Positions 1 through 63,765 of a stretch of DNA of 64,000 nucleotides are shown piece after piece. Below the pieces are notes generated by a model that saw nothing but the letters and a program-made list of their open reading frames with translations, had not been told where the DNA came from and searched no databases. The translations under genes and the position numbers were made by a program. Within the stretch, counting starts at the first letter, position 1, and every line of letters starts with the position of its first letter. This stretch comes from a candidate division TM6 bacterium GW2011_GWF2_37_49. Lineage in GTDB: Bacteria > Babelota > Babeliae > Babelales > RVW-14. The stretch is from NCBI GenBank assembly GCA_945861145.1, contig CAMATL010000001.1, positions 21,003 to 85,002 on the forward strand. Reading direction: 5' to 3'.

Positions 1-1
1 T

Positions 2-2278
2 ACGCGCAAAAGCAGTATCGCGATTAACAATCTTTACAGTCTTGGCGCCTTCAAACAAGTAGAAATTAGAGCTCGTGAAGAAGGGAGCGTGGTCCATATC
101 ATTATTCACGTTGAAGAAAAAAAATTGCTCGAAGGTTCTGAATTTATCGGCAACCACGAAGTCAGTACAAAAAAAATTAATGAAACGCTCGATTTAAGCA
201 AGGTCTCTTATATTGACGAAGAAAGCGCTCGCAATATTGCAAAACTTGTACAACAACTTTACATTGCCGAAGGCTACCATCGAGCACAAGTTTCATTTGA
301 TTTTAAACCAAACACACAGAACAAAAACAAAGTAACCGCTGTTTTTACCGTTGAAGAAGGCGATAAAGCCAGTGTTTTACGCGTAGAATTTCGGGGCAAC
401 AAAAAAATATCCTCTCGGAAATTAAGTAAGGTTATTTTTACACGTGAGCGTTGGTTGCTTGGGTTTGGCGATGGATCGGGCACTTATGATGAACGCCGCG
501 TTGAGCAAGATAAGCACTTTATTGAAAGTTTCTACTTCGAAAATAGCTTTCTCAATACTAAGGTTTATAAAACTGATGTTAATTTCTCACAAGACAAAAA
601 AAACATCACCATTACCTTTCATATTGAAGAAGGCGAACAGTTCTCTGTGCGCAGCATAAGCCCTCCAGGTGATGATATCGTCTCCACCGAAGAAGCATCT
701 GCCGTGATCACTGTTCAAGAAGGCAAGCCGCTCATACGTCACGAACTTGTTGAGTCTATGGAGAGGATGAGCACCCTATGGAAAGAAAAAGGCTACATCT
801 ATACAGAAGTAACTGAAACCATTCGCCCGGATGAAAAAACAAAAGAAATTGATCTCGCCTTCATGGTTAACCCCGGCAAAAAATTATACGCCAATCGCAT
901 CAGTATCAGCGGCAACCGCAATACACGAGACAGCCTCATTCGTCGACGTTTAGATATTTTAGAAGGTGACTTGATCACAAATTCAAAATTAGAAACATCT
1001 AAGCGCGCTGTTGAATTTTTAAGCTTTTATGAACAGGGCGGCGTGAACTGGGTTGTACATCGCATTGCAGAGGATCTAGCAGATCTTGAACTTCAAGTTA
1101 AAGAGACTAAGACTGGTAATTTTAATGCACAGCTAAGTTACGGCCCAAGTGGTGAAAGCCAACAAAAACAAGAGCTTCAAGGATCTATTCTTTTAGAAAA
1201 AGGCAATCTCTTAGGTCATGGAATTGACGCAGGCCTCGCTGTCAAAGCAGGTTTTGACAAATTAAGACCAGCTCTACGCCGCTTTGAAGTACGACTCGTT
1301 GACCCTCATATTTTTGATAAAGATGTCTCATGCGGCTTCTATCTTTACCACCGCTGGGATGAATATGATCGCTGGAACATGCTCACAAAAATTCCAACCA
1401 TGGACACGATGGGTACAAATGTTCGCTTTGGTTTTGGTCTGCCTGAATTTGATAAGCGCCTTGCATTAATGCTTGATCTCGGCGCTGAAACGATTCGCAA
1501 CAACAACCCTAAAGTTCGAGACCCCCACGATAGCTTCTTACGCAACTCTGATCCTTTATACCAACTAATTGTAAACCGCACCTTCCAAGAAGGTTCACTC
1601 TTGTGGGTAGGCCTTGATTTAGTCAAAGACATGCGCAACCACCAAGTCTATCCAAATAAGGGTTATAAAATTACTCTAGGTACTAAGACCGCACCTAGCA
1701 GTATTAACCAAACATTTGGTTTCTTACGCGTTGAAGCTGCGGCAAGCATGTACAATGCCATCCTAAATGATGATGACCTTGTTCTTGGCAACCACCTTAA
1801 GATCTGTAATGTACGAGAGCTCAGCGCGAAAAAGAGTATCCCCTATAAAGAGTTATTCCACATGGGTGGACCAAACACGATACGCGGGCACGTATGGAGC
1901 GGCATAGGACCAGCCTGGAAAGCAACCAATGAGCCCCTAGGTGGACGCAATGCAATCCAATGCAACAATGAAATCACCTTCCCTCTTGCTCGCAACCTTG
2001 GTATGCGCGCTCACGTCTTTTATGACCTTGGTGCTGCGTGGGACACACCAGACACTTCGATCAAAGAATTTAATGATGCACAAACAGCTAGTGAGCGCAT
2101 TGCGTTTAGTGAAGTCGTAACGCGCAACAAGTTTAATTTGCGCCATACGGTTGGCTTTGGTCTTAATCTTACCTCGCCAATTCCAGCTAAAATTGACTGG
2201 GGCTTTAAGCTCGACAGAGATCGCAAGACAAATGAGTCCGCTCATGAATTCCATCTAACTATGAATTATGCTTGGTAG
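2..2278 (+). CDS. bamA: Outer membrane protein assembly factor BamA (Omp85 family), 5' end cut by the window edge
   Basis: The frame is open from nt 2, with no stop before the GTG at 89, and reads NNLYSLGAFKQVEIRAREEGSVVHIIIHVEE. POTRA-like segments are present (VEFRGNKKISSRKLSKV; ISISGNRNTRDSLIRRRLDILEGD). A long C-terminal barrel ends in an aromatic residue (HLTMNYAW). Confidence 0.85.
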   Translation, partial: TRKSSIAINNLYSLGAFKQVEIRAREEGSVVHIIIHVEEKKLLEGSEFIGNHEVSTKKINETLDLSKVSYIDEESARNIAKLVQQLYIAEGYHRAQVSFDFKPNTQNKNKVTAVFTVEEGDKASVLRVEFRGNKKISSRKLSKVIFTRERWLLGFGDGSGTYDERRVEQDKHFIESFYFENSFLNTKVYKTDVNFSQDKKNITITFHIEEGEQFSVRSISPPGDDIVSTEEASAVITVQEGKPLIRHELVESMERMSTLWKEKGYIYTEVTETIRPDEKTKEIDLAFMVNPGKKLYANRISISGNRNTRDSLIRRRLDILEGDLITNSKLETSKRAVEFLSFYEQGGVNWVVHRIAEDLADLELQVKETKTGNFNAQLSYGPSGESQQKQELQGSILLEKGNLLGHGIDAGLAVKAGFDKLRPALRRFEVRLVDPHIFDKDVSCGFYLYHRWDEYDRWNMLTKIPTMDTMGTNVRFGFGLPEFDKRLALMLDLGAETIRNNNPKVRDPHDSFLRNSDPLYQLIVNRTFQEGSLLWVGLDLVKDMRNHQVYPNKGYKITLGTKTAPSSINQTFGFLRVEAAASMYNAILNDDDLVLGNHLKICNVRELSAKKSIPYKELFHMGGPNTIRGHVWSGIGPAWKATNEPLGGRNAIQCNNEITFPLARNLGMRAHVFYDLGAAWDTPDTSIKEFNDAQTASERIAFSEVVTRNKFNLRHTVGFGLNLTSPIPAKIDWGFKLDRDRKTNESAHEFHLTMNYAW

Positions 2279-42901: not shown

Positions 42902-44032
42902 ATGAAGCAAGCGTTGTGGGTCGTTAATAGTTCGATCATCGGACTTTTTGTTCTTTCTATGGCGATGCTGCAGGTGTTACACAAGGAACCACCGCATATT
43001 GCCAAGCTAGTTATTACTGAGCAACAACTAGCTAAAAAGAAGCACGTGTTTCCTCCGGCTCACTGGGAACCAATATTTAAACACGACCTGTTTGGTACCT
43101 ATGTGCCACAGGCATCCAAGGTGACACCAAAAAGCCTTGTCACTAACGCCCCAGAGCCAAAAGAATCTAGCCCTGAACCGATTCCAGAAGCTAAAAAACC
43201 TGAATTTGTTCCTGAGCTTGTGCTGAGCATTAAAGGTATTATTATTGCTGCCGACGAAACGCACAATGTCGCCATGATTGAAGACGAAGCCAAAAAAGAA
43301 GGTGTTTATCATATCGGCGACCTGTACAAAGATGGGCAGATTATTAAAATCTCTCGCAACAGCGTTGTCTTCTTACGCTCCAGCGGCCAACAAGAATCAT
43401 TTTACTTACGCAAGGAAGATGCTGACCTCGCAATGGATGGTCCAGCGAAGTGGGAATATATCATCAAAAAAACTGCTGAGACAGCTTGGCAGGTTGATCC
43501 AGAAAGCTTTAAACGTGAAATTGATTCATTGGGCGCGTTCATTGATCGTACCAGTATTATTGGTACCGCTTATCAACAAGGCAATGCAGTTGGCCTGCGT
43601 GTCGGTGAGCTGACACCAGATTCACTAGGAAGTCTCCTTGGCCTTAAAAAAGGTGATATTCTGTTATCAGTTAATGACCTAAGTGTTGCTCAAGCACGCA
43701 ATCGCGTTACTATTTTTGATAAAGTCTGCGCAAGCGCTGTTGACGATGTTATCATAGTGAAACTAAAACGTGAGGAAGCAGAGGTAACGCATACCTATAA
43801 GCTCTCCTACATAAGCAAAGCGAAAAAAATGATGTTCTCTGACGGTAAGGCTAAGGATGAGCCAAAACCTGATGAAGCGCTGAAAATGAGTAAGATGCAA
43901 GAACGCGACAAACAAGCGCGCGAATTTAGTGAACGACATGAAAACAACGGCCAACAAGATGCAATTGCACAAATTCGCAAACGTTTGTTAGAAAACCTGC
44001 GAGCACGCCTCCAGGGGGCACGAGCACGATAA
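42902..44032 (+). CDS. GspC-like protein (TM anchor, secretin-interacting HR region, PDZ domain)
   Basis: TM helix ALWVVNSSIIGLFVLSMAML. The HR-like region reads LSIKGIIIAADETHNVAMIEDEAKKEGVYHIGDLYKDGQIIKISRNSVVFL. The PDZ-like region reads GLRVGELTPDSLGSLLGLKKGDILLSVND. Confidence 0.65.
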   Translation: MKQALWVVNSSIIGLFVLSMAMLQVLHKEPPHIAKLVITEQQLAKKKHVFPPAHWEPIFKHDLFGTYVPQASKVTPKSLVTNAPEPKESSPEPIPEAKKPEFVPELVLSIKGIIIAADETHNVAMIEDEAKKEGVYHIGDLYKDGQIIKISRNSVVFLRSSGQQESFYLRKEDADLAMDGPAKWEYIIKKTAETAWQVDPESFKREIDSLGAFIDRTSIIGTAYQQGNAVGLRVGELTPDSLGSLLGLKKGDILLSVNDLSVAQARNRVTIFDKVCASAVDDVIIVKLKREEAEVTHTYKLSYISKAKKMMFSDGKAKDEPKPDEALKMSKMQERDKQAREFSERHENNGQQDAIAQIRKRLLENLRARLQGARAR

Positions 44033-44047: not shown

Positions 44048-47000
44048 ATGGTGTTGTACGCATTTTTATTTTTGATTAGCTTGCTGGCTGCGTTCACGCA
44101 GCCTCTTTTTGCTATGCCTGGCGAAGAGCCGGTGATCACTAATGAAGAACAACAGCTTCCAACAATCAACCCCCTCCTTGCATCTGTAAAGCCCTCATCG
44201 CAAGCTGTAATAATGCCTGACAATAATCCGGTCATCGAAGAAGAAGATGATGCCATGGCGAATCTCATCAAAACAGCGCCATCAAGTGCAGACTCAAGCA
44301 AGGCTGATAAAAAAGATAAAAAATCTGCCGGCAAAGAATCCAAGCCCGCTGAAGAAAAAGAGCGTAATGATATTTACCTGAATTTTGAAAACAGCTCATT
44401 GGCTAACGTGGTCAATTACATGGCCGAGCTGCGCAACATTAATTTATTGCCTGACAAGGCACTGGCCGACATCAAAGTATCACTCACGATTCGTGAGCCA
44501 CTCACCGTAGACGGCGCATGGAATATTTTCCTTACGCTGCTTGAAGTATCAGGCTTTAGCATCGTTGAAGTTGGCGGTCTGCACAAAGTTATGCCCAAAG
44601 ATAAAAAAATGACCGAAGCCCTACCAATCTTCATCAATGTGCCGTACACAACATTGCCAGATAGTGATTTGACCGTGCGTTATGTTATGTTTTTGCAAAA
44701 CTTACAAATCGATTCCGTCAAAGATCTACTCGACAGTTTATTGAGCGACAAGCACACGTTGTTTCCGTATGCACAAGCAAACTGTTTTATTATTACTGAT
44801 CGCTGCTACAACATAAAATCAGCCATGAAGGTTATACATGAGCTCGATGCTATGGGCCAACCAGAAACGGTTGTGGTCATGCGTCTGAAGCGTACCAACG
44901 CCACCGATGTCAAAGGACTTATTGAAGGCTTGATGAGTAAAAAACAGGATAACAACCCACTTGCACGCTTCTTTGCCAAACCCGTTGATAGCACCACTGA
45001 ATATTTCCCAAGCGGGACAAAAATCGTAGCGGAAGATCGCACCAACCAGCTCATTTTAATGGGCAGTCCTGGCCCTATTGAAAAAATTAAAGATTTTATC
45101 ATGGCTCACATTGACGTTGATCTCAAAGCGGCAGAATCACCGCTACACATTTATGAACTACAGTATTCCGACGCCACAGCGATAGCAGAAATTTTAACCG
45201 CAGTGACAGCGCCCCCTGAAGGCGGTGCTGGCCAACAAGCTGCAAAATACGGTGCCATTCGCGGCGGCGTTAAATATTTTAAGCCAATGAAATTTATAGT
45301 CGACAAAGATGCCAATCGTCTCATTATTTCATGCACCGACAAGCAAGATTGGATTCTCCTGAAATCGATCATTAAAGATCTTGATAAGCCACAACCACAA
45401 GTCGCTATCGAAACTTTATATGTTTCAATTGATGAAAACGACATCAAACAAATGGGCGGCTCTATCCGCAATAAAAAAGAGGGCCAACTCGGCAAGGGTG
45501 TTGATTTTCAGGCAGCATCGCTGGGCACCGCCTCTCTTAGTACAGGGACTGACAAAAATCCTGTTACGCTGCTTGGTAGTATGCTTGGACAGCTTATTAC
45601 AGATAAAGGATCTACCCTTCTTACATTCGGCCAAGCCTCAAATATATGGGCTGTATTTGAAATGCTTAAATCACGAACCAATGCATCAATAATCTCACAA
45701 CCATTTATAACTGTGGCAAATAAAGTTGCTGGTAAAATTACGGTAGGTAGCGAGAACAACGTTGTTACAGAAGATTCAGGGGGTACAGGGCCAAAAGGTT
45801 ATGGCACGGTTACAGCAGATACCTCATTAGAAGTAGAGCCACAAATCAATTTGGATGGTGTTATTCGCTTAAAAATAACTGTTAATATTAGCGAATTTAC
45901 TGACCCAACAGTCGGAAATAAATCTGTAAATCATTTATCAACAAATATCAGCATGGCTGATGGTCAGGTTTTGGTACTTGGCGGCTTTATGCAAACCAAA
46001 GTTTCAGAAAACACAAATAAAACACCACTGTTAGCTGATATTCCAATTTTTGGCTGGTTTTTTAAAAATCAAAAGCGAACCATCGGTCGTAAATATATTT
46101 TCATTTTTATGGCACCAACTATCGTCAAACCGCGCTCTACGCCGGGTGTAGAATTGTACTCAAAGATGAAGCTGCACGAGGCTACTAACGATATTGAAAG
46201 CGGTATAAAAACAGTGAAAACACATGATCCGCTCTTAAATTGGTTTTTTGATCCTAAGGGTGAAAATTACTCCCATAAGGTTGTCGATTTTGCCAATGCT
46301 CGTTACCAACCAACTACCGTAGATATCAAGCACGATACCTACTATCGAGCCAATTCTAGTGAAGATGAAAAAAATCAGTCATTCAGTCAGCCTGTCACAA
46401 CCCATGCACCAACTATGATTGCAGCAGATAACATTGGCGAACCAGCTATTCAGTCGCCTAGTATTGAAATACAAGCAAGCACCCCTGTAATTGCAGAACC
46501 TGCAAGTAGCCAGATTATTGGCGATACCATAAGCACGCCACTTGCTTCAGCGATGATCCCATCAGATAGCGTCATGACCAATCCTACCCTAAGCACGCCG
46601 GTCATCGTTCCAAAAAATACTGTTATGACTAACCCTACATCAAAGACTACCCCAACCATCACACCGCTAGCATCGTTACCTCAATTAGCGCCAAAGATTG
46701 CATCAAGTAAACCTTTTTCCGCAAAGAAGCCTGATGCTGCCAATATTAAAGCGGTTATGGATAAACGATTGGGCCTTACAGAAAAAGAGCCTGCGCAACC
46801 ACGTAGTAAACTTGTTGAGCTAGCACAGGAGACCAACCAAGACGAGATATTTGAGACTGGTGCTCCAATGACTAAATCACCAAAATTCTCATCACAACAA
46901 GAACCAATCATTGAAACAAATTACGTAGAGCCGCACCCTGCCAAGCAAGACGTACTTAATCTTTTAGGTGAACGCATACAACAACAACGACATATCAGTG

Positions 47001-47263
47001 TCGACAGCGAACAACTCGTCAATCAACGCAAAAAACTTAAATCTTTAATCTCACAATCGTTTAGCGGCACAAGCAATAACAATGTAATCAATCCTCCAGC
47101 AAATGAAAAACAGGTGGCGCTTAAAGCATTACTTGCTTTACCAGACGCCCCAACGCGTAATCAACGGCAATTAGTTGTCGATCCTGTTAAGCGCAACTCT
47201 TTAAAAGATTTTCTTTCACAAGCTGAGCAACCAGCCCCAACGACAAGGAATAACCCTGCATGA
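44048..47263 (+). CDS. Secretin (GspD/PilQ family) 1, with a 303-aa low-complexity C-terminal tail
   Basis: Signal peptide and N0 region IYLNFENSSLANVVNYMAELRNINLL. The secretin core reads GQVLVLGGFMQTKVSENTNKTPLLADIPIFGWFFKNQ. An ATGA overlap links it to the next gene. Confidence 0.85.
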   Translation: MVLYAFLFLISLLAAFTQPLFAMPGEEPVITNEEQQLPTINPLLASVKPSSQAVIMPDNNPVIEEEDDAMANLIKTAPSSADSSKADKKDKKSAGKESKPAEEKERNDIYLNFENSSLANVVNYMAELRNINLLPDKALADIKVSLTIREPLTVDGAWNIFLTLLEVSGFSIVEVGGLHKVMPKDKKMTEALPIFINVPYTTLPDSDLTVRYVMFLQNLQIDSVKDLLDSLLSDKHTLFPYAQANCFIITDRCYNIKSAMKVIHELDAMGQPETVVVMRLKRTNATDVKGLIEGLMSKKQDNNPLARFFAKPVDSTTEYFPSGTKIVAEDRTNQLILMGSPGPIEKIKDFIMAHIDVDLKAAESPLHIYELQYSDATAIAEILTAVTAPPEGGAGQQAAKYGAIRGGVKYFKPMKFIVDKDANRLIISCTDKQDWILLKSIIKDLDKPQPQVAIETLYVSIDENDIKQMGGSIRNKKEGQLGKGVDFQAASLGTASLSTGTDKNPVTLLGSMLGQLITDKGSTLLTFGQASNIWAVFEMLKSRTNASIISQPFITVANKVAGKITVGSENNVVTEDSGGTGPKGYGTVTADTSLEVEPQINLDGVIRLKITVNISEFTDPTVGNKSVNHLSTNISMADGQVLVLGGFMQTKVSENTNKTPLLADIPIFGWFFKNQKRTIGRKYIFIFMAPTIVKPRSTPGVELYSKMKLHEATNDIESGIKTVKTHDPLLNWFFDPKGENYSHKVVDFANARYQPTTVDIKHDTYYRANSSEDEKNQSFSQPVTTHAPTMIAADNIGEPAIQSPSIEIQASTPVIAEPASSQIIGDTISTPLASAMIPSDSVMTNPTLSTPVIVPKNTVMTNPTSKTTPTITPLASLPQLAPKIASSKPFSAKKPDAANIKAVMDKRLGLTEKEPAQPRSKLVELAQETNQDEIFETGAPMTKSPKFSSQQEPIIETNYVEPHPAKQDVLNLLGERIQQQRHISVDSEQLVNQRKKLKSLISQSFSGTSNNNVINPPANEKQVALKALLALPDAPTRNQRQLVVDPVKRNSLKDFLSQAEQPAPTTRNNPA

Positions 47264-48969
47264 TGATGCGCAATATCCTTCTACCTGAAAAAATTGGTAC
47301 GCGCCGCCTCTTTGCTCTACGCGTGTTGAGCATTATGATCCAGGAAGATTCAGTCCGGGGTAGCATTGTTTTGTTAAAACCAAATGCTGCAGTCGTTCAA
47401 AAACTACTTGATTTTCCGTTTGGACAAAGCAGTAATAACGCTCCCGTCCGCAGCCTGCAAGAAGCCTTAACGGCTCTCATCGCCGCTGCTGGCAAGATAG
47501 ATGATATTCGTGTCGTTATTCCGGCTACTATGACAATTATCAAAGAGCTTGAAGTTCCTTTTGTCGATAGTGAAAAAATTCGCATGGTTATTGGCTATGA
47601 AATCGAGCCACTCCTACCATTTTCACTCGAAGAAGCCATCGTCGATTTTATTGTTACCAAGAGCAACAAAGACCTCCTGAGTTCTCAAATTCTCGTGGTA
47701 GCCATTCGCAAGCAAGATCTTGCCGCCATCCTTGAGCCGTATGAGCAAAATGGTATTAAAGTTAAAACCGTCATCATCGATCTTTTTGCAACGTATGGTT
47801 TATACCAAAAAATTTCCACGTATCATGATCTGCCAGGAAGCACAGCGCTTGTGGATGTTGGCTTACAAGGTACGCGAATTACCTTTTTGCAAAACAACCA
47901 GCTTAAGCTAACACGCTATATCACTAAGGGATTGAATTTCATTCTCAATCACATCAGTGAAGAAATAGGCGCAAGCAAAGAAGAGGTATTAAAACACCTC
48001 CAAGAGGATGGCATCAATGCACTTGATACCCAAAGCATGCTTGAAAAAACAATGCAAAAACATCTCATTAATTTTTTTAATGAGATTCAATTTACCCTCA
48101 ATTCATTCAGTCTTAAGCTGAACTATTATGAAGGCGTCAGCAAAATTTTATTTGTGGGTAGCGTTGCAAATATTCCTCATCTTATGGAATTTAGCACAGA
48201 GCTTTTGCAGATACCTTGCGAGCTTTTTAACCCTCAAAAAATCTTTGAGGGCAAAGGCATCAAAAATAACACCCCCGTATCAACAACTGGCTGGGAGCTA
48301 TTTGTTAACCCTTTGGGCGCTACGCTTGGTCCAATAGAATTTGAAAATTTTAATCTACGCAGGCATGAATTTGCGCTTTTTGACATTGAGCTAGGCTTGC
48401 AACAATTATTTACTGGTTGCTTTCTTCTTCTACTCACCTTTGGTGTCATAGGGTTTATGGGATACTCACAAATCAGCGAACTGCGCAGCACTACACAGGC
48501 GCTAGAGGCCGATCAAGCCGATAGGCTACGCGCACTACTCGCCCGCAAAGATCGTGCGCGCACAATGAGCCTGCAAGCTCTTTTTCGTAAGATTGAAGAC
48601 TTGGTAAAAGAGAAAAAATCTCTTTGGGAGCCTTTTGGGCAAGCACGTATCAAACCGCTTGAGCTGTTGCTTGAAGTAACCCAAACCTTTGATAAGAAGC
48701 AATTTAAGCTCGATGTTGAAGAATTTAACTTAAGTGAAAAAGAACCTGGCAATCCAATTATTGAACTCTCAGGTTATTTTAAATCAGATCTTGGGATGGG
48801 ATCCAATTTCAGAGAGTGGATGCAACTTGAGGACCGTATCAAGGAGTCACCGCTACTCACTCTTGTAGAACCGCCTTCGACTATTCCAGCAGCAGAAAAA
48901 GGCATTAAATTTGATGTTAAATTACAAAAAAAATCTTTCCGCGATGATGCGCAATCGGTGAATCAATAA
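47260..48969 (+). CDS. GspL-like / PilM-PilN fusion-like assembly protein
   Basis: The cytoplasmic actin-like part has ALVDVGLQGTRITFLQNNQLKLTRYITKG. A single TM helix (FTGCFLLLLTFGVIGFMGY) is followed by a coiled coil and a periplasmic domain of about 160 aa. Confidence 0.6.
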   Translation: MMMRNILLPEKIGTRRLFALRVLSIMIQEDSVRGSIVLLKPNAAVVQKLLDFPFGQSSNNAPVRSLQEALTALIAAAGKIDDIRVVIPATMTIIKELEVPFVDSEKIRMVIGYEIEPLLPFSLEEAIVDFIVTKSNKDLLSSQILVVAIRKQDLAAILEPYEQNGIKVKTVIIDLFATYGLYQKISTYHDLPGSTALVDVGLQGTRITFLQNNQLKLTRYITKGLNFILNHISEEIGASKEEVLKHLQEDGINALDTQSMLEKTMQKHLINFFNEIQFTLNSFSLKLNYYEGVSKILFVGSVANIPHLMEFSTELLQIPCELFNPQKIFEGKGIKNNTPVSTTGWELFVNPLGATLGPIEFENFNLRRHEFALFDIELGLQQLFTGCFLLLLTFGVIGFMGYSQISELRSTTQALEADQADRLRALLARKDRARTMSLQALFRKIEDLVKEKKSLWEPFGQARIKPLELLLEVTQTFDKKQFKLDVEEFNLSEKEPGNPIIELSGYFKSDLGMGSNFREWMQLEDRIKESPLLTLVEPPSTIPAAEKGIKFDVKLQKKSFRDDAQSVNQ

Positions 48970-49529
48970 TGAATTTAAACATAAAAACACATTGCATTGA
49001 AGCCTTGAGGTATCTGCATGGGCTTGAAAAAGCCGAGTTTGAAAAATACCTATTCATCGGCCTGGCTAGCTTTGGGCTCCTGATCGGGACCAGCGTTTAT
49101 CTTGTTTATAGCACCTGTAATAACCTCCACCAGGAAATTACTAATTTACAAAATTTGAAAAAAAAGACGCGTAAATTATTACTTGATTTTGGCAGTATTG
49201 ATGCCGAAGAAACACGCATCAACGCAATCCTCGAGCAGCATAAAAGCTTTGATCTCAAGATTTATTTTGAATTATTCTGCAAAGAGCAAGGCGTTGCCGC
49301 AGCACCAGGCTGGAATGCATCAACCACCGTTATTAATCCACAGGTTGACGAAATATCGCTCACGGCAACTTTTAAGAGCCTGACTACCGAAAACCTTGTA
49401 CGCATGCTACAAGAATTTGATAAAACAGAGGTCGTGTATCTAAAAAATATTCGGATCAAAACAGACAAAGACAAAAAAATTACCTGTGAAGTCACACTGG
49501 CTACCATTCAAAAAAAAGCACAGGGGTAG
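48969..49529 (+). CDS. GspM/PilO-like bitopic protein
   Basis: 186 aa with one TM helix (FIGLASFGLLIGTSVYLVY), then a coiled coil and a small domain. A TAATG overlap links it to the upstream gene. The call rests on position and architecture only. Confidence 0.4.
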   Translation: MNLNIKTHCIEALRYLHGLEKAEFEKYLFIGLASFGLLIGTSVYLVYSTCNNLHQEITNLQNLKKKTRKLLLDFGSIDAEETRINAILEQHKSFDLKIYFELFCKEQGVAAAPGWNASTTVINPQVDEISLTATFKSLTTENLVRMLQEFDKTEVVYLKNIRIKTDKDKKITCEVTLATIQKKAQG

Positions 49530-49538
49530 GTTTATATT

Positions 49539-52256
49539 ATGATAAATAAATTGTGGTTATGGATTACAGGACCGCTCCTATCCTACCGCTCGAGACCCTT
49601 CGAGACAGCCCTATCGGGCTTCCTCAGGGCGAGCGGAGTCAGCAAGTTAATTCAATCTGCTTTGATGGGCCTTGCCAGTATTGAGAATTGTCATTCTAAA
49701 TTCAGAGCTCTCTTCTTAACCGCTCGCCCTGATATTTTTTCGACCGGCTCAGCAGCAAAAAAACCCGCTCGCCTTGAGCTTGTCGAAAGGTCTCGAGCGG
49801 ATTTCAAAGGGTTTCGAGCGGCCAAAACTCTTAAAATAGCCTTTTTATCTTTATTTATTGCCACCACCTCCCTGCACGCAGAAGAGCCAAACGTCAGCGT
49901 CATGTTTAATCCTGCCACAGGCTCCATACAAGCGATCAATGCGGATGAAAGCTCCCCAATAACTACCCAAGAGCAAGCGCTTGCCCTAGCCCAAGAGCCA
50001 ATGATAGACATTGCGCCACCGCTATCAGGTGCATCTAATAAAAAACCCGCAGCGCCATCTACCACTAAGGCCGCCACTACTACTCCCTCTAAAGGAATCG
50101 ATGATGGCGAAGCAAATGTGTACCTTAATTTTGAAAACGTAAGCCTTAACAGTGTTGTTAACTATTTGGCTGAACGTAAAAAAATTAACCTTGTCCCGCA
50201 CAAAGATTTAGAGGCTCAAAAAGTATCGCTCAGCACACGCAAGCCACTCACACTAAATCGCGCTTGGGATATCCTACTCACCCTTCTCGAGATGAATGGT
50301 TTTAGCATCGTGCAAGTCAACAATTTGCATCGCATCGTTGCAAATAAAGATAATGGCGTTGAGCCATTGCCGTACTACACCTCTCAGATAACAGCACCCG
50401 AAGATTTGCCAGACAGTGATCTAGTAGTGCGCTACATGTATTTTTTCAAAAATATAAAACCTGAAATCGCTCAAGATATTTTAAAAACAATGCTCGATGG
50501 TGATAAGAGCGTGCAGCCAATTAAAGACCTGCAAGCTGTTATTATTAAAGAAAAGTGTCACAACATCAAGGCTGCCTTACGGGTTATTAAAGAGCTTGAT
50601 ACTGGTGGCCTACGTCAATCCATCCGCATAGTCCCGCTCAAAGAAGCTGATGCTGAAACCGTACAAAAGCTTTTTCAAGACATTTTGGGTGGCGGCGAAG
50701 GCGGCGATGATCGTTTAAAATTTATAGCGGCTGATAGCCCTGCAGAATCGGCCTATTTTTCTTCAACAACAAAAATTATTCCCGATTCAAGTAAAAACTC
50801 ATTAATTCTTTTGGGTACACCAGCCAACATCGATAAGATTTGTAATTTTATTTATAAATATATCGATGTACCAATTGGTACCGCCAATTCACGTATTCAT
50901 ATTAGAGAGCTGCGCTACGCTAAAGCAGAAGCATTAAAGCCACTACTTGAAAGTATTATCAAACCACCAAGTGGCCAAGGTAGTGATAAGAGTAGTATTG
51001 TCGGGCAATTCAAATTTTTTGAAGATGTAATTATTGCGGCAGACGCCGCTGGTGGCGATGAAAATAGAGGCGCAGGCAACCGACTGATTATTTCAGCCAA
51101 TCAAGGCGACTGGGTACGCTTAAATAGCTTTATTGATAAACTCGACAAACCAGCACCGCAGGTCGCTTTTGAAGTAATGATAGTAGATATTACCCTACGC
51201 ATGGATAAAGAACTTGGCGCTCAACTACAAAGCCAAGGCATGGTCGGCGCTGGGCTTAACCGCGTGAATTTTAATAATATCTTTGCGCTTCCAAGCGGCA
51301 CAGAAGGGAAAGAAACCTATACACCAGACAACCCTACCATCCCTGCTTATAAATTCACTGATATCATAAATAAAATAGGATCTGGTTCGTTTTTAACACT
51401 TGGCGCTCCAGGGGTGGGCGAGGCCAATAAAATGTGGGCTTTTATCCGCAGTTATTTTAATACAAATAATAGCCATATTGTTTCTCAGCCTTACTTAATT
51501 ACTAATAATTTTCAAGAATGCCATATTGCGGTTGGAAGTACGGAGCGCGTTCCTGGCCCATTAATCACTGAAAAAGGTGAGGCTAAAACACAACAAAAAG
51601 TAGAGAGATCGGCCAATACTGACGTTAAATTAACACCACAAATTAACTATGATGGTGTCGTTACACTTAAAATTGATATGTCGATAAATGAATTTGTACC
51701 CGGCTCCCCAGAGAGCGGCTCAAATATGGCCAAGCGAACCATAGCAACAAAAGTAAACATGGCTGCTGGCGAGGTGCTAGTGCTTGGTGGTATGGCAAAA
51801 AGCAATCTCAATTTAAGCACTTATAAAACCCCAATCCTTGGCGATATACCAATCCTTGGCAACCTCTTTCGCAGTACAGTCAAAATAAAGGATGAAGTAA
51901 ATCTGTATGTCTTTATTCGCCCAAGCGTCATCAAGCCAAGCTTTGAAGGCGCGCCAGATGAATACACACAACTCAAGCTCGATTATGCAAAATATCAAAT
52001 GATCAAGACCGACAATTATTCTAGAGAGTATGACCCTGTGCATCGCTGGTTCTTCAAGCCAACAAACCATTCAATCAAAAACACACTCGCCGATGCGCGT
52101 AATGGGGTATTTAGACCTGTGGATGACTTCACGTATGGTAAAGGCCAGCCGAAGACTGTGGATATAAAATCCGATCCATACTACCAAGCCACAGTCAATG
52201 TTGAAGCTGCTAAGAAATTGAAGAAGTTAAAATCGCGCAAGAAAAAACAGGCGTAG
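49539..52256 (+). CDS. Secretin (GspD/PilQ family) 2, with a repeat-derived N-terminal extension
   Basis: N0 region VYLNFENVSLNSVVNYLAERKKINLV and secretin core GEVLVLGGMAKSNLNLSTYKTPILGDIPILGNLFRS. The signal-like h-region KTLKIAFLSLFIATTSLHA begins only at about residue 97. Confidence 0.8.
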   Translation: MINKLWLWITGPLLSYRSRPFETALSGFLRASGVSKLIQSALMGLASIENCHSKFRALFLTARPDIFSTGSAAKKPARLELVERSRADFKGFRAAKTLKIAFLSLFIATTSLHAEEPNVSVMFNPATGSIQAINADESSPITTQEQALALAQEPMIDIAPPLSGASNKKPAAPSTTKAATTTPSKGIDDGEANVYLNFENVSLNSVVNYLAERKKINLVPHKDLEAQKVSLSTRKPLTLNRAWDILLTLLEMNGFSIVQVNNLHRIVANKDNGVEPLPYYTSQITAPEDLPDSDLVVRYMYFFKNIKPEIAQDILKTMLDGDKSVQPIKDLQAVIIKEKCHNIKAALRVIKELDTGGLRQSIRIVPLKEADAETVQKLFQDILGGGEGGDDRLKFIAADSPAESAYFSSTTKIIPDSSKNSLILLGTPANIDKICNFIYKYIDVPIGTANSRIHIRELRYAKAEALKPLLESIIKPPSGQGSDKSSIVGQFKFFEDVIIAADAAGGDENRGAGNRLIISANQGDWVRLNSFIDKLDKPAPQVAFEVMIVDITLRMDKELGAQLQSQGMVGAGLNRVNFNNIFALPSGTEGKETYTPDNPTIPAYKFTDIINKIGSGSFLTLGAPGVGEANKMWAFIRSYFNTNNSHIVSQPYLITNNFQECHIAVGSTERVPGPLITEKGEAKTQQKVERSANTDVKLTPQINYDGVVTLKIDMSINEFVPGSPESGSNMAKRTIATKVNMAAGEVLVLGGMAKSNLNLSTYKTPILGDIPILGNLFRSTVKIKDEVNLYVFIRPSVIKPSFEGAPDEYTQLKLDYAKYQMIKTDNYSREYDPVHRWFFKPTNHSIKNTLADARNGVFRPVDDFTYGKGQPKTVDIKSDPYYQATVNVEAAKKLKKLKSRKKKQA
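49571..49822. repeat. Composite GC-rich repeat (CCGCTCGAG / CCTTCGAGAC / GAGCGG family) inside the 5' end of the secretin 2 ORF
   Basis: ccgctcgagacccttcgagacagccctatcgggcttcctcagggcgagcgg matches 55831..55872. ccgctcgccttgagcttgtcgaaaggtctcgagcgg matches 56748..56785. The boundaries are approximate. Confidence 0.6.
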
Positions 52257-52262
52257 TAAAAA

Positions 52263-52583
52263 ATGGCGATGGAACGATCTCAAATTCAAAATCCAGCAAC
52301 AATAAAATATGTCGATATTATTGTTGCATGTGTAAAAAAACATCTCGGAGATTGTAAAATTTATTTATTTGGGTCGCGCGCTGAGAATAAAGATCGAGAA
52401 GGCTCTGATGTTGATATAGCTCTTGACCTCGATACAAAAATTAATTTCAAAACTATTGTTCAAATTAATGACGAATTAGTTATGTCAAAACTGCCCGTGT
52501 TTGTTGATATTATTGATATACATGAAGCATCCGCTGAACTTAGAGATCAGATTAAAAAACATGGAATTTTATGGAAAAGCTAA
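52263..52583 (+). CDS. Minimal nucleotidyltransferase (MNT-type antitoxin)
   Basis: LFGSRAENKDREGSDVDIALDL carries the G-S-x(n)-D-x-D motif. The gene overlaps the downstream HEPN start by 13 nt. Confidence 0.75.
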   Translation: MAMERSQIQNPATIKYVDIIVACVKKHLGDCKIYLFGSRAENKDREGSDVDIALDLDTKINFKTIVQINDELVMSKLPVFVDIIDIHEASAELRDQIKKHGILWKS

Positions 52584-53010
52584 TCCTAAAACAAACCATT
52601 CTCAATCAAGCCTTAGAGCAGCTTAAAACAGTAATTATTGATTATGAAAAAACAATATGCCCTTAGAGTTTGCACATGGAAAAGAATACCTTCGCGAAGC
52701 CATGATGCAGCGGTTTGAATACTCATGTGAATTATTTTGGCGATTCATAAAGGCTTATCTCGACTTCGCGCATGGAGCTGTTCCTGCCGAGAGTGGAGCG
52801 CGCAGCATTATTCGCGCAGCTTGTAAGATCGGTATTTTATCAGAGTCTGAAACAGGCATAATCATTGACATGATTGAAGATCGCAACAAAAGCTCACACA
52901 TGTACCTAGAATCTGTTGGATTGCAAATTGCAAAACACATTCCAATATACGCAGAGCTCATGCAAAAAATAACTTCTCGGATCATTTTAAAAGTTAGTTC
53001 CGCGAGGTAA
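52571..53010 (+). pseudogene. HEPN-domain protein (HI0074-like, toxin partner of MNT) interrupted by a frameshift at an A6 run
   Basis: Frame 2 from the ATG at 52571 gives MEKLILKQTILNQALEQLKTVIIDYEKTICP-stop (52664..52666). Frame 1 continues from 52648 with NNMPLEFAHG...MQRFEYSCELFW...EDRNKSSHMY (R-x4-H). The frames join at aaaaaa (52647..52652). One extra A would give a protein of about 146 aa. Confidence 0.6.
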
Positions 53011-53030
53011 AATCACGCATAAAACTAAAA

Positions 53031-53066
53031 AAGCGTGGGCTTGATTTCACAATCAAGCCCACGCTT
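53031..53066. terminator. Bidirectional hairpin terminator
   Basis: aagcgtgggcttgatt (53031..53046), loop tcac, aatcaagcccacgctt (53051..53066): a perfect 16-bp stem with an A-run upstream and a T-run downstream. Confidence 0.75.
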
Positions 53067-53085
53067 TTTATTTATTTTTTAAAAT

Positions 53086-55790: not shown

Positions 55791-55823
55791 AACGTCTCCT
55801 TAGTAGAATCTAACTCTGCTGCC

Positions 55824-56013
55824 ACTCGTACCCTTCGAGACGCACTAAAAAACTGCTCCTCAGGGCGAGCGGGGACTTTTTCTTGAGCCATCTTTCCGCT
55901 CATCCTGTCCTTCGATCCGCTCATACTGAGGAAGGCTGCAGGCCTGTCTCGAAGTACATGAGCGGGCTCAGGATGCTCGGGACGATTAAATCGTGTCTCG
56001 AAGTACATGAGCG
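55824..56013. repeat. Cluster of GC-rich palindromic repeats (CCTTCGAGAC / CATGAGCG family)
   Basis: cccttcgagacgcactaaaaaactgctcctcagggcgagcgg is present. gtctcgaagtacatgagcg occurs twice (55946..55964 and 55995..56013). ccgctcatcctgtccttcga is also present. The cluster abuts the stop of the LOG gene. Confidence 0.6.
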
Positions 56014-56015
56014 AA

Positions 56016-56711: not shown

Positions 56712-56747
56712 AAGCCCCCCTTTTTATTGAGCACAATTTACCACCAC

Positions 56748-56785
56748 CGCTCGAAGCCCTGAGCTTGTCGAAGGGTTTCGAGCGT
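56748..56785. repeat. Solo palindromic unit (CGCTCGAA...TTCGAGCG)
   Basis: ccgctcgaagccctgagcttgtcgaagggtttcgagcg is near-identical in design to 49766..49800. Confidence 0.5.
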
Positions 56786-56820
56786 AGATCCATAGGATTT
56801 ATCAAAAAATTCGAAAAACC

Positions 56821-61243: not shown

Positions 61244-62335
61244 TTACGAGTGATTATCTTTGATACAACCGTCTACCGTTACATAGGCGCCACCAAGCAC
61301 CCGCACATTCACATCACCAGCCGCAGTGCCATCACCAAAAATCAGCGCCTTAGTCATGTCGGCATTAGAAGCTCCATCATAATTTTTATTAAAAATGCGC
61401 ACCTTATTTTCAAATATCACGGTGCCCTTGGTTAAGCTCAAACCGTTAGCGCCGGTATAAAAATCGCAACCATCGAGATGAAGGACTGATGTCTCATCGG
61501 CCATCGTAAATGTAATCGACCCAACATCAGTAGATTTTATTGCTTCAAGAATAGTCCCTTTTCCTATGTAGAGCGTAGAATTTTTTTCGATAATAAAATT
61601 TACAGCACTATTCGAATTTAATTTCAAGCGTCGACCAGGCATATTCAATGCCACTCGTCCGCGAATAGTAAGCGATGTAGCCGACCACCCCAACGTAGTC
61701 CAATCACTTAGCGATGATTTACCACCAGCAATTGTTATATTTTCTAAAACATGATCAACACTTTTAAAAATTCCATTATCATTCGATGAATCATATACAT
61801 TAAACAGCATATTTTTTAACGTTATAGCTGATCCAGCACCTCCCATCCCAATTATTGAGGGACAATTAAAGGTATGCCCTTGCCCATCTATAACAAGATT
61901 ATTTCCAGATGTTGCTGCAATAGATGCATTGGTTGCCATTGTTGTATCATTACCCAAAATAATTTTATTATTATTCCCTCTAATTCGACAATTAGCCCCA
62001 CTCAGTGAGCCAGAACCTCCCAACCGCAAATCAGTCATAAGATTAAGCTGGGAACTATCAGCAGAAAAGGTAATTGGCCCATTTACAACTCCATCACCAT
62101 CCCAGGTTGCTATCACACTGGCAGGAATTATAAATCCCGCTTTAAACATGGCATGGCCACGAATTTTATCGCCATTAGCAAACGTTGGCGCTGTTGCCTG
62201 GTATCCTGTGGTCGAGTTACCCCCTGGCGCCGTAGAAATTACTGATGTGGCAAATACAGAGGACGGCACCAAGAGAAGAGAGGAGAAGAGAAGAGAGGAG
62301 AAGAGAAGAGACAAATTATATTGAACTCTCATCAC
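61244..62335 (-). CDS. Secreted surface-protein paralogue A (beta-helix-like, G/N/S/T-rich), leader in frame
   Basis: The leader is M-M-RVQYNLSLLFSSLLFSSLLLVPSSVFA, then TSVISTAPGG...YQATAPTFANGDKIRGHAMFK. The C-terminal 76 aa differ from paralogue B at only two positions (HLDG/HLNG and FGDG/FGNG). Confidence 0.75.
   Translation of the reverse strand: MMRVQYNLSLLFSSLLFSSLLLVPSSVFATSVISTAPGGNSTTGYQATAPTFANGDKIRGHAMFKAGFIIPASVIATWDGDGVVNGPITFSADSSQLNLMTDLRLGGSGSLSGANCRIRGNNNKIILGNDTTMATNASIAATSGNNLVIDGQGHTFNCPSIIGMGGAGSAITLKNMLFNVYDSSNDNGIFKSVDHVLENITIAGGKSSLSDWTTLGWSATSLTIRGRVALNMPGRRLKLNSNSAVNFIIEKNSTLYIGKGTILEAIKSTDVGSITFTMADETSVLHLDGCDFYTGANGLSLTKGTVIFENKVRIFNKNYDGASNADMTKALIFGDGTAAGDVNVRVLGGAYVTVDGCIKDNHS
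62271..62311 (-). repeat. Coding pentamer tract, 8 units: T(CTCTT)2 CTCCT (CTCTT)2 CTCCT (CTCTT)2
   Basis: Read on the minus strand, the tract encodes SLLFSSLLFSSLLL of the leader peptide. It is 41 nt long and keeps the ATG and the mature protein in frame. Confidence 0.9.
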
Positions 62336-62703: not shown

Positions 62704-63765
62704 TTACGAGTGATTATCTTTGATACAACCGTCTACCGTTACATAGGCGCCACCAAGCACCCGCACATTCACATCACCAGCCGCAGTGCCATTACCAAAA
62801 ATCAGCGCCTTAGTCATGTCGGCATTAGAAGCTCCATCATAATTTTTATTAAAAATGCGCACCTTATTTTCAAATATCACGGTGCCCTTGGTTAAGCTCA
62901 AACCGTTAGCGCCGGTATAAAAATCGCAACCATTGAGGTGGAGTGTTGACGTTGCATCAACTAAGGTTATACCAGCAAAATCACTCAATACAACGCCAGG
63001 ATCTATGTACAAAGTTGAATTTTTATCTACAACCAAAGTGTGAGCACCACAAAGAACCCTAGAATCTCCCCCCGGATTCAAAAATCGAACAACGCCTTTA
63101 ATCGTAACTCCATTTGTAATCTCATCAAAAAGGTGCCTGGTTCCAGCTGTCCTTAATCCAATAAAGTTAATATCTTGGAATACAAGATTAACAAAGGAAT
63201 TAAGCGGTCGCAGTGGAGTTGATGCAACAACCTTCAATGTTAAATTTTTTAATGTAAGGGAATCTAAGGGTAGGGAATTAGGATCAAGAGAACCCGCAAA
63301 AAAACTTTGTGTAACAATAGTACTACGCACTTGCCCATCAATAGTCAAATCTCCTAACGGCCCTCCAGAAGCACCTACCGCCGCAAATTTTCCCGCAGAA
63401 AGGTCTAAATCTCCTGCAAGAATTAATTTTTTGTTTGGCGCTATCAAATACATTATTTTGTTATAGTCTGGGTCGCTTGATAGTGGTGCAAATACAAATC
63501 GCGCAGTACTACTCAATCGTAAATCAGATGAAAGTACCAATGTTGAGTCCCCATTTGAAAATGTTATCGGTCCTGCCACAATACCATCACCATCCCATGT
63601 CACTACCGCAGAATTGGCAAGCGAAAGTCCATTTTTAAACATGGCATGGCCACGAATTTTATCGCCATTAGCAAACGTTGGCGCTGTTGCCTGGTATGCT
63701 GTGGTCGGGTCACCACCAGGCGCCGTTGAAATTACTGATGTGGCAAATACAGAGGACGGCACCAA
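62704..63765 (-). CDS. Surface-protein paralogue B; body ORF intact but out of frame with its ATG and leader
   Basis: The body reads VPSSVFATSVISTAPGG...YQATAPTFANGDKIRGHAMFK..., with the same C-terminus as A. The homologous ATG (63815..63813) is in another frame. Only an internal TTG (63765) opens the body frame, which then lacks a hydrophobic leader. Confidence 0.6.
   Translation of the reverse strand: MVPSSVFATSVISTAPGGDPTTAYQATAPTFANGDKIRGHAMFKNGLSLANSAVVTWDGDGIVAGPITFSNGDSTLVLSSDLRLSSTARFVFAPLSSDPDYNKIMYLIAPNKKLILAGDLDLSAGKFAAVGASGGPLGDLTIDGQVRSTIVTQSFFAGSLDPNSLPLDSLTLKNLTLKVVASTPLRPLNSFVNLVFQDINFIGLRTAGTRHLFDEITNGVTIKGVVRFLNPGGDSRVLCGAHTLVVDKNSTLYIDPGVVLSDFAGITLVDATSTLHLNGCDFYTGANGLSLTKGTVIFENKVRIFNKNYDGASNADMTKALIFGNGTAAGDVNVRVLGGAYVTVDGCIKDNHS

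What the first reader, a model, noticed from the sequence alone, without database searches (positions are those of the whole stretch)
49571..49822. GC-rich repeat block read through in frame at the 5' end of secretin 2, pushing the signal-peptide core to about residue 97
Seen directly:
- The ORF opens MINKLWLWITG and then reads for about 84 codons through sequence made of dispersed repeat motifs.
- Those motifs include ccgctcgagacccttcgagac...cctcagggcgagcgg and ccgctcgccttgagcttgtcgaaaggtctcgagcgg, which recur at 55831..55872 and 56748..56785.
- Only after this block does the signal-like segment KTLKIAFLSLFIATTSLHA-EEP appear.
- Secretin 1, by contrast, starts directly with its signal peptide.
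- There is no ATG, GTG or TTG between the repeat block and the hydrophobic core.
- Removing about 252 nt would give MINKLWLWITG-AKTLKIAFLSLFIATTSLHA, a normal-looking leader.

Established knowledge: Sec signal peptides have short n-regions. Rickettsia palindromic elements are a precedent for repeats inserted in frame in genes.

Inference: an element landed inside the leader-coding region. The gene is then either exported by an unusual long leader, translated from a non-canonical start, or inactivated.
Basis: partly seen in the sequence, partly recalled or inferred. Interest (0 to 1): 0.6.

Follow-up and report, generated by a model that had tools for sequence, protein, structure and literature searches.

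The report
Repeat cluster inside a secretin leader
A cluster of small palindromic repeats sits between the start codon and the export signal of a secretin gene in an uncultured Dependentiae bacterium; the only usable start lies 96 codons before the signal's hydrophobic core, and close relatives carry different repeats at the same spot.

Summary
ORF 49539..52256 is a GspD/PilQ-type secretin. Codons 17-95 read through a 236-nt palindromic block (49586-49821). The only strong hydrophobic stretch is residues 97-112, followed by SLHA|EEP.

The block is an insertion. Eight orthologues at 58-70% identity start 3-10 nt after the upstream gene's stop and have no block; six have 21-24-aa leaders and two have 34-37. 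Codons 1-16 of the window align with the first 16 codons of an outgroup signal peptide.

Module 49586-49636 belongs to a multi-copy hairpin family, with 33 copies in one Babeliaceae MAG. There the copies lie outside long ORFs.

The event was not a single 252-nt insertion. Contigs with almost identical flanks (7 mismatches in 7.5 kb) carry a different 297-nt segment with another element and its own ATG. A third element occupies the same site in two further lineages. The window has ACT where these have ATG.

In all three alleles the frame from the conserved start stays open through the insert (28/5000, 5/5000 and 34/5000 shuffles).

Best reading: translation from 49539 runs through the repeats and gives a pre-secretin with a 114-residue leader. 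A young null allele is the main rival. This is a new variant of in-frame palindromic-element insertion.

The parts
48969..49529 (+). Upstream 186-aa gene of the gspC / secretin 1 / pilM-gspL-like / 186-aa / secretin 2 operon. Its stop codon TAG is at 49527-49529.
   Evidence: ORF list. Operon content from Pfam. The same gene lies directly upstream of secretin 2 in every orthologous locus.
49539..49541 (+). Anchored start codon (ATG), 9 nt after the upstream stop. It is positionally and sequence-wise the ancestral secretin-2 start.
   Evidence: Orthologues start 3-10 nt after the upstream stop. Window ATGATAAATAAATTGT aligns with L006 ATGAAAAATAAATTAT.
49539..49585 (+). Relic of the first ~16 codons of the ancestral signal peptide (MINKLWLWITGPLLSY).
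   Evidence: Aligns with L006 codons 1-16, MKNKLFFLLLSIGAYS. Shared in part with L002 and L048.
49586..49636 (+). Module A: a 51-nt REP-like hairpin, CCGCTCG..ACCCTTCGAGAC-[stem-loop]-TCCTCAGGGCGAGCGG.
   Evidence: Folds at -29.9 kcal/mol, z = -4.8. It is 83-89% identical to copies in a Babeliaceae MAG. 33 full copies were found in the fetched loci, nearly all from that MAG. The consensus hairpin has 4 compensatory pairs in the apical stem.
49637..49719 (+). 83-nt AT-rich spacer of unknown origin. It is open in frame 0 but carries stops in both other frames.
   Evidence: No match in the window or in any fetched locus. No significant similarity to the interiors of the other elements.
49720..49764 (+). 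Degenerate half-module. CCGCTCGCCCTGA is the perfect inverted partner of 49624-49636, and 49738-49751 pairs with 49775-49788.
   Evidence: Inverted repeats I3 and I5; fold.
49765..49800 (+). Module C: a 36-nt hairpin, CCGCTCGCCTTGAGCTTGTCGAAAGGTCTCGAGCGG.
   Evidence: Similar to window 56747-56785. It has many matches in the Babeliaceae MAG loci. Fold.
49801..49821 (+). Terminal half-module. TCAAAGGGTTTCGAGCGG is the outer inverted repeat of 49586-49603.
   Evidence: Inverted repeat I2, 18 nt, 89% complementary. It closes the long hairpin.
49827..49829 (+). ACT (Thr97) at the position where allele A (L001/L004) and allele C (L002/L048) have the ATG of their secondary signal peptide.
   Evidence: Alignments and sequences.
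49830..49880 (+). Signal-peptide core and c-region, LKIAFLSLFIATTSLHA. Cleavage is inferred after Ala114, before EEPNVSV.
   Evidence: Hydropathy peak at residues 97-112. The boundary ...A|EEPNVSV (or a close variant) recurs in the orthologues. No signal-peptide predictor was available.
49881..52256 (+). Mature secretin 2 with N0, Secretin_N and Secretin domains. It has 2 mismatches to L001 over 3972 nt of right flank.
55822..55872 (+). Second module-A copy in the window, lying between the LOG-family gene and a 198-aa gene.
56747..56785 (+). Second module-C copy in the window, in an intergenic gap.

Best explanation
**What it is (shown).** The block 49586-49821 is a composite of small REP-like palindromic modules plus an AT-rich spacer. 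It sits at an insertion and recombination hot spot inside the 5' end of secretin 2 of a Dependentiae bacterium.

- The ancestral gene started 3-10 nt after the upstream gene's stop, with a leader of 21-24 aa in most outgroups.
- In this clade, foreign DNA was inserted after about codon 16 of that leader.
- A replacement signal peptide with its own ATG lies downstream of the insert in the relatives.
- At least three different elements now occupy the same site in different strains. The whole leader segment is exchanged between lineages.
- The window's allele is the minority one (2 contigs against 9). It has ACT in place of the secondary ATG, and the repeats lie in frame with the ancestral ATG.

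**How it probably works (inferred).**

- Ribosomes start at the anchored, translationally coupled ATG at 49539 and translate straight through the repeats.
- This melts the -118 kcal/mol hairpin and keeps expression coupled to the operon.
- The product would be a pre-secretin whose net-positive 96-residue N-terminus stays cytoplasmic.
- Residues 97-112 would then engage Sec or SRP as an internal signal, and signal peptidase would cut after SLHA.
For: **Insertion.**
- Eight outgroup orthologues lack the block.
- The left flank is homologous to an outgroup signal peptide.
- The leader has no protein homologue.

**Repeat family.**
- Module A has 33 full copies, nearly all in one Babeliaceae MAG plus one in a TM6 MAG. 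The hairpin is conserved and shows compensatory changes.
- In that MAG the modules lie only under short open stretches of 62-167 codons, never inside long ORFs.

**Hot spot and exchange.**
- Window against L001: 5 mismatches in 3557 nt on the left and 2 in 3972 nt on the right, yet the 334-nt and 297-nt segments between are unrelated.
- Allele A is 100% identical between L001 and the 87% lineage (L004) for about 155 nt, and the sequences then diverge.
- Allele C shows dS 0.15 between L002 and L048, against 0.90 in the adjacent mature gene.
- All three elements lie after CTAT(T)CCT(AC) and before [ATG/ACT]-yTTAAA.

**Translation through the insert.**
- The frame from the anchored ATG has 0 stops in the window, against 6 and 6 in the other two frames; 28 of 5000 shuffles are open.
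- In L002 it has 0 stops against 7 and 6; 34 of 5000 shuffles are open.
- In L001 a 77-codon ORF ends at a TAA overlapping the second ATG (ATGCTTAA); 5 of 5000 shuffles are open.
- L048 is also open, 0 stops against 9 and 9.
- An AGGG-type SD-like motif precedes the anchored ATG in all lineages.

**Leader properties.**
- K+R 16 against D+E 6 in residues 1-96, and a single strong hydrophobic stretch at 97-112.
- Two repeat-free orthologues already tolerate 34-37-aa leaders from the same anchored start.
Against: - No experiment or signal-peptide predictor supports export with a 96-residue n-region. From my own knowledge, the longest Sec leaders I can recall are about 50-70 aa (autotransporter ESPR, FhaB).
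- The allele is very young, because its flanks are essentially identical to allele A. An intact 2.4-kb mature ORF therefore says nothing about function.
- It is the minority allele, 2 contigs against 9.
- The right junction is seen in one assembly only.
- Alleles A and C keep a second ATG, so their open frames could serve coupling only, without a fused product.
- The relic LWLWITGPLLSY is Trp- and Leu-rich and might itself act as a weak signal, which would give the wrong topology.
- Between L002 and L048, 33 random substitutions would keep the frame open 24.5% of the time. That comparison adds little.
Confidence: 0.55

Rival explanations
1. Young null allele. The exchange or insertion that created allele B removed the secondary ATG. 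Secretin 2 is then not made, or not exported, in this strain. The open in-frame reading is luck plus the low stop content of GC-rich modules.
For: - ACT replaces the ATG of relatives.
- It is the minority allele.
- Flanks identical to allele A mean there has been no time for decay.
- A paralogous secretin 1 lies in the same operon.
- The module family is otherwise extragenic.
Against: - Only 28 of 5000 shuffles keep the frame open, and the insert must also be in frame.
- The same property recurs in two unrelated inserts at this site.
- Both secretins are retained together in the three relatives where the upstream region was retrieved, L002, L005 and L006.
Confidence: 0.3
2. Translation starts at a non-canonical codon next to the hydrophobic core, for example ATA at 49836. 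The upstream ORF would then be irrelevant.
For: In-frame ATA (codon 100) and ATT (codon 107) exist.
Against: - No SD-like motif lies 5-12 nt upstream of either; the preceding sequence is GAGCGGCCAAAACTCTTAAA.
- A start at ATA gives a leader with no charged n-region.
- A start at ATT falls inside the h-region.
- The site is buried in a -118 kcal/mol hairpin unless upstream ribosomes open it.
Confidence: 0.05
3. Assembly artefact. The MEGAHIT contig joined reads from different strains or loci through repeats, and no genome carries this exact junction.
For: - Contigs of relatives often break inside the elements (L003, L004, L010, L011, L013-L015).
- The right junction is seen in one contig only.
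Against: - All repeat modules are 36-51 nt, well below k = 141 (the k141 label on the contig name).
- The left junction TAGGTTTATATTATGATAAAT is reproduced in a second assembly, L011 from GCA_947445965.1.
- The post-block segment is a genuine homologue of the L048 and L002 signal peptide, not random sequence.
Confidence: 0.05
4. The extension is an ancestral N-terminal domain of this secretin lineage.
For: None found.
Against: - It is absent from eight outgroup orthologues and from strains with almost identical flanks.
- It has no homologue in 5.8 billion protein clusters.
- No Pfam domain lies in residues 1-195.
- It is made of dispersed DNA repeats.
Confidence: 0.01

Closest known systems
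Rickettsia palindromic elements (RPE)
   Same: Palindromic repeats of a host-dependent bacterium inserted in frame into protein-coding genes, so that the host ORF stays open (reviewed in PMC10969869).
   Different: - RPEs are single units of about 150 bp that each encode a conserved peptide. Here the insert is a mosaic of 36-51-nt hairpin modules plus a unique spacer, and its peptide has no homologue.
- The phylum is Dependentiae, not Rickettsia.
- The insertion lies between the start codon and the h-region of a signal peptide.
- Sequence homology to RPE families was not tested.
REP / BIME repetitive extragenic palindromes of Proteobacteria
   Same: - Short GC-rich imperfect palindromes with an invariant stem base and a variable tip.
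- Many copies per genome.
- Clustered in alternating orientation in gaps between genes.
   Different: - REPs are extragenic by definition, and this copy is inside a 905-codon ORF.
- No RAYT-type transposase was looked for.
- No sequence relationship to named REP families is shown.
Intragenic MITEs (ERIC, Correia, QMITE1 of Coxiella, Anabaena MITEs) that make in-frame fusions
   Same: Non-autonomous repeats with terminal inverted repeats that sometimes lie inside genes and extend ORFs (PMC10969869). The elements in alleles A and C are classic MITEs of about 170-200 nt, with 36-nt and 21-nt terminal inverted repeats respectively.
   Different: - The window's block has 18-nt outer inverted repeats, but I saw no target-site duplication in the flanks.
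- No second copy of the whole unit was found.
Extended Sec signal peptides (autotransporter ESPR, FhaB)
   Same: A classical h-region and c-region preceded by an N-terminal extension. This comparison rests on my own knowledge.
   Different: - Those extensions are conserved motifs, with total leaders of about 50-70 aa. Here the pre-core part is 96 aa, unconserved and repeat-derived.
- Nothing in residues 1-195 scored at or below E = 0.001 against Pfam-A.

Membership tests
REP/BIME-type palindromic repeats | Short imperfect palindrome able to form a stable hairpin | tested here: met
   Module A folds at -29.9 kcal/mol, z = -4.8. The 56745-56788 copy has z = -4.6. The consensus structure has 18 pairs, 4 of them compensatory.
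REP/BIME-type palindromic repeats | Many dispersed copies in a genome | tested here: met
   33 full module-A copies in the fetched loci, nearly all from one Babeliaceae MAG. There are 2 copies each of modules A and C in this 64-kb window. The copy number in the source genome as a whole was not measured.
REP/BIME-type palindromic repeats | Extragenic location | tested here: not met
   Other copies lie only under short open stretches, but this cluster is inside a 905-codon ORF.
REP/BIME-type palindromic repeats | Associated RAYT (IS200/IS605-like) transposase in the genome | not tested
   Only 16 of the window's ORFs were scanned against Pfam, with no transposase hit. The rest of the genome is not available.
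MITE | Terminal inverted repeats bounding a unit of 100-400 nt | tested here: met
   49586-49603 pairs with 49804-49821: 18 nt, 89% complementary, unit 236 nt.
MITE | Target-site duplication | tested here: inconclusive
   By eye, the flanks ..TCCTA|C and CCAAAAC.. show no direct repeat. No formal test was run.
MITE | Other copies of the whole unit | tested here: not met
   Only the modules recur. The spacer 49637-49719 and the composite as a whole have no match in the window or in the other fetched loci. The full source genome was not searched.
Rickettsia palindromic elements | In-frame insertion that keeps the host ORF open | tested here: met
Rickettsia palindromic elements | Element encodes a conserved peptide shared by copies | tested here: not met
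   The leader peptide has no homologue. Between L002 and L048 the leader of allele C has omega 0.75 in the translated frame, with similar values in the other two frames.
Rickettsia palindromic elements | Sequence homology to RPE-1..10 | not testable with these tools
   No RPE consensus library was available. Rfam gave no match above its gathering score.
Cleavable Sec (SPase I) signal peptide | Hydrophobic core followed by small residues at -1 and -3 before the mature protein | tested here: met
   Core at residues 97-112. SLHA|EEPNVSV aligns with the leader/mature boundary of the orthologues. No predictor was run.
Cleavable Sec (SPase I) signal peptide | Short positively charged n-region directly after the start codon | tested here: not met
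   96 residues precede the core, and there is no canonical start after codon 43.
ESPR-type extended signal peptide | Match to the conserved ESPR motif | tested here: not met
   Nothing in residues 1-195 scored at or below E = 0.001 against Pfam-A.

The most novel reading that the evidence does not exclude
In these Dependentiae, selection keeps repeat insertions at tightly coupled operon junctions translatable from the anchored start codon ("bridging ORFs"). Ribosomes then unwind the hairpins and deliver themselves to the downstream gene.

In the window's allele this has gone one step further. The bridging ORF is fused to the secretin, which would then be exported with a 114-residue, repeat-encoded leader. 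From my own knowledge that is far beyond any Sec leader I can recall.

The leader segment also behaves as a cassette that is exchanged between lineages whose synonymous sites have diverged to dS of about 0.9 in the neighbouring gene.
Probability: 0.25. Interest if true: 0.7.

Novelty: new variant of a known kind. Interest (0 to 1): 0.45.

Why it matters
- **Limit of the signal peptide.** If the long-leader protein is exported, it sets a natural upper bound on how far a Sec signal core can sit from the N-terminus. A reporter fusion can test this.
- **How compact operons absorb selfish repeats.** The open frame through three unrelated inserts at one junction, and through a second repeat-laden junction in the window, suggests a general mechanism: translation through the repeats preserves coupling.
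- **A caution for annotation.** Gene callers gave 905, 886, 869, 818 and 779 aa for the same secretin, depending on which element was present and where the contig broke.

If it is only a young null allele, it is an ordinary case of repeat-mediated gene disruption.

Tried and rejected
- **Rfam.** Scans of 49300-50100 and 49000-63000 found nothing above the gathering scores. The LPR69 hit (21.6 bits against a threshold of 40) is sub-threshold.
- **Origin of the AT-rich spacer.** Local alignment to the interiors of the L001 and L002 elements and of the window's 53410 element was not significant. The best result was 18 of 500 shuffles, before correction for 6 tests.
- **Leader peptide as a domain.** No homologue was found.
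- **Promoter and terminator scan of 48900-50100.** Nothing exceeded the shuffled expectation.
- **Metagenome scan with the 186-aa neighbour.** It returned one locus only, L046.
- **Genome scan pattern.** My gap range of 20-50 excluded the window's own copies, whose gap is 17 nt. The absence of the source species among the hits therefore means nothing.
- **Literature.** Searches on Dependentiae palindromic repeats and on the motif string found nothing relevant.
- **Invertible-segment idea.** By eye, alleles A and B share no sequence in either orientation between the flanks (alignment); no reverse-complement search was run.
- **Conservation of the open frame between L002 and L048.** The test has little power, because random substitutions keep the frame open 24.5% of the time.
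- **Peptide-level constraint on the allele C leader.** None was detected: omega is 0.75 in the translated frame and similar in the other frames.
Full report
**The observation**

ORF 49539..52256 encodes 905 aa and opens MINKLWLWITG. Pfam finds the GspD N0, Secretin_N and Secretin domains.

It is the last gene of a cluster made of a GspC-like gene (42902..44032), secretin 1 (44048..47263), a PilM/GspL-like gene, a 186-aa gene and secretin 2. Named database relatives are Candidatus Dependentiae / Babeliales.

Codons 17-95 run through sequence rich in CCGCTCG/CGAGCGG. Six of the window's ten copies of the motif lie here, against 3.6 expected for the whole window.

The region folds into one long hairpin of -118 kcal/mol, z = -6.9. 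Nested inverted repeats define a 236-nt unit, 49586-49821.

After the ATG at codon 43 there is no ATG, GTG or TTG in frame before the hydrophobic core. That core, residues 97-112, is the only strong hydrophobic stretch in the N-terminus. Secretin 1 begins directly with its signal peptide.

**It is an insertion, not a domain**

- Eight orthologues of 58-70% identity lack the block. Six have leaders of 21-24 aa and two have 34-37 aa.
- In the five whose gene layout was retrieved (L005, L006, L046, L047 and the contig of P0008), the start codon lies 3-10 nt after the stop of the 186-aa gene.
- The window's ATG lies 9 nt after that stop.
- Its first 16 codons align with the first 16 codons of the L006 leader: MINKLWLWITGPLLSY against MKNKLFFLLLSIGAYS.
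- So 49539 is the ancestral start, and foreign DNA lies after about codon 16.
- The 114-aa leader has no homologue among 5.8 billion protein clusters.

**What the inserted DNA is**

- Module A (49586-49636) is 83-89% identical to a family found by a pattern scan of reference genomes. 24 of the 30 loci returned come from one Babeliaceae MAG and one from a TM6 MAG; the remaining five are single hits in other phyla.
- I extracted 33 full copies in subfamilies of 52, 63, 68 and 72 nt. They share invariant ends and differ in the central stem-loop.
- A consensus fold keeps 18 pairs, with compensatory changes in four apical pairs.
- Module C (49765-49800) is also multi-copy in that MAG.
- In that MAG the modules occur in clusters, often in alternating orientation. 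They are covered only by short open stretches of 62-167 codons, never by long ORFs. They therefore behave like REP/BIME elements, and the secretin copy is the exception.
- The 83-nt AT-rich spacer (49637-49719) matches nothing I could reach.
- Rfam has no family for any of this.

**The site is a hot spot with exchangeable alleles**

The window is a MEGAHIT contig of 103.5 kb (ERZ27280245), and the 905-aa call exists in public annotation.

Contig L001 from a sister sample differs from the window at 5 of 3557 nt on the left and 2 of 3972 nt on the right. Between the stop codon and CCACCTCCCTGCACGCA, however, it carries an unrelated 297-nt segment where the window has 334 nt. That segment is allele A. 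It comprises:
- a 170-nt MITE with 36-nt terminal inverted repeats;
- a GAAGG SD-like motif;
- its own ATG and a different signal peptide, MLKKTSLHLFGLALFTLFFINATSLHA.

Allele A is the common form, seen in 9 contigs. The window type, allele B, is seen in 2: the window's own contig, and L011 from GCA_947445965.1, which breaks just after ATGATAAAT.

Allele A is also 100% identical over about 155 nt in the 87% lineage (L004), after which the sequences diverge.

A third element with TGTCATCCC-type ends, allele C, occupies the same position in L002 (81% lineage) and L048. Its leader shows dS of about 0.15 between those two, while the adjacent mature gene shows dS 0.90.

All three inserts sit after CTAT(T)CCT(AC) and before [ATG/ACT]-yTTAAA. 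The post-insert segment of the window, TLKIAFLSLFIATTSLHA, is the homologue of MIKRCLFVLFIATTTLQA in L048. The window has ACT exactly where L048, L002 and L001 have ATG.

The event behind the window's allele was therefore not a simple 252-nt insertion into an intact leader. It was turnover at an already occupied site, combined with the absence of the secondary start.

**How it most likely works**

The strongest pattern concerns the frame that begins at the anchored ATG. It is open through all three unrelated inserts.

| Allele | Stops in anchored frame | Stops in other two frames | Shuffles that are open |
|---|---|---|---|
| Window (B) | 0 | 6 and 6 | 28 of 5000 |
| L002 (C) | 0 | 7 and 6 | 34 of 5000 |
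| L001 (A) | 77-codon ORF, ends at a TAA overlapping the second ATG (ATGCTTAA) | 5 and 9 | 5 of 5000 |

L048 is also open, 0 stops against 9 and 9.

An AGGG-type motif precedes the anchored ATG in every lineage. I infer that translation coupled to the upstream gene continues through the repeats. This would unwind the hairpin and deliver ribosomes to the signal-peptide region.

- In allele A this ends in termination and re-initiation at the second ATG.
- In allele C the bridge is in frame and an internal ATG is available.
- In the window's allele only the fused product is possible.

Its pre-core part is net positive (K+R 16, D+E 6), which fits an N-in orientation with residues 97-112 acting as an internal signal and cleavage after SLHA. 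Two repeat-free orthologues already have 34-37-aa leaders from the same start.

These functional steps are inference. No predictor or experiment was available.

**Rivals**

- **Young null allele.** This is the main alternative. The allele is rare, recent and lacks the ATG.
- **Non-canonical start at ATA or ATT.** Neither has an SD-like motif upstream.
- **Assembly chimera.** This is unlikely. The modules are far shorter than k = 141, the left junction recurs in a second assembly, and the right flank is a true homologue of allele C.
- **Ancestral domain.** This is excluded.

**Comparison with known systems**

The closest known case is in-frame insertion of Rickettsia palindromic elements and other intragenic MITEs (PMC10969869). 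The modules themselves behave like REP/BIME elements.

The differences are:
- the mosaic build of the insert;
- its position between a start codon and a signal core;
- three different elements at one site;
- exchange of the leader segment between lineages;
- the open bridging frames.

I file it as a new variant of a known kind.

**A second example in the window**

The 225-nt repeat-laden gap between the LOG-family gene and the 198-aa gene (55791-56015, minus strand) is also bridged. The ORF starts 7 nt after the upstream stop. 44 of 3000 shuffles reach it in the window, and 63 of 3000 in the orthologous gap of L002. Two other repeat-bearing gaps are not convincingly bridged.

Noticed in passing
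window 55791-56015 (minus strand); L002 8773-8989: The repeat-laden gap between the LOG-family gene and a 198-aa gene is spanned by an ORF (MYFETRFN...) that starts 7 nt after the upstream stop. It is open in the window (44/3000 shuffles) and in the orthologous L002 gap (63/3000). This is a possible second bridging ORF.
   Followed up: partly
window 53410-53563: A 154-nt MITE with perfect 27-nt terminal inverted repeats (TGTCATCCCGGGTAGGGCCCCGGGATC). Its ends look similar in style to the elements that fill the secretin-2 site in L001 and L002. It has a weak sub-threshold Rfam hit to Wolbachia sRNA 46.
   Followed up: partly
window 52263-54992 compared with L002 7662-8172: The window carries about 2.9 kb that L002 lacks between secretin 2 and the 198-aa gene. 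The extra DNA holds a nucleotidyltransferase / substrate-binding pair (a toxin-antitoxin-like pair), an ORF matching the gene called as L-PSP-family (PF01042) in the source contig, the MITE above and a 452-aa ankyrin-repeat protein.
   Followed up: no
L016, L025-L028, L031, L040, L044, L045: Single matches to the module-A pattern (ACCCTTCGAGAC...CTCAGGGCGAGCGG) occur in MAGs or genomes labelled Binatia, Sphingomonas, Novosphingobium, Alphaproteobacteria, Chloroflexota and a delta proteobacterium. The motif may be much more widespread than Dependentiae.
   Followed up: partly
window 46006, 46011, 46015 (inside secretin 1): The window differs from its own ENA contig (L007), and from L001, at three positions within 10 nt. 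All three are A in the window. One changes Ser to Asn.
   Followed up: no
window 61172-61471 / 62632-62931 and 61244..62335 / 62704..63765: A tandem duplication of about 1.46-1.49 kb with a 300-nt stretch at 99% identity. It holds two paralogous minus-strand genes, each followed by the same long terminator-like hairpin (61167-61224 and 62632-62684).
   Followed up: no
L003, L004, L010, L011, L013-L015: Many short-read contigs of this species end inside or next to the elements at the secretin-2 site. As a result, gene callers report truncated or extended versions of the same secretin (779, 818, 869, 886 and 905 aa).
   Followed up: yes
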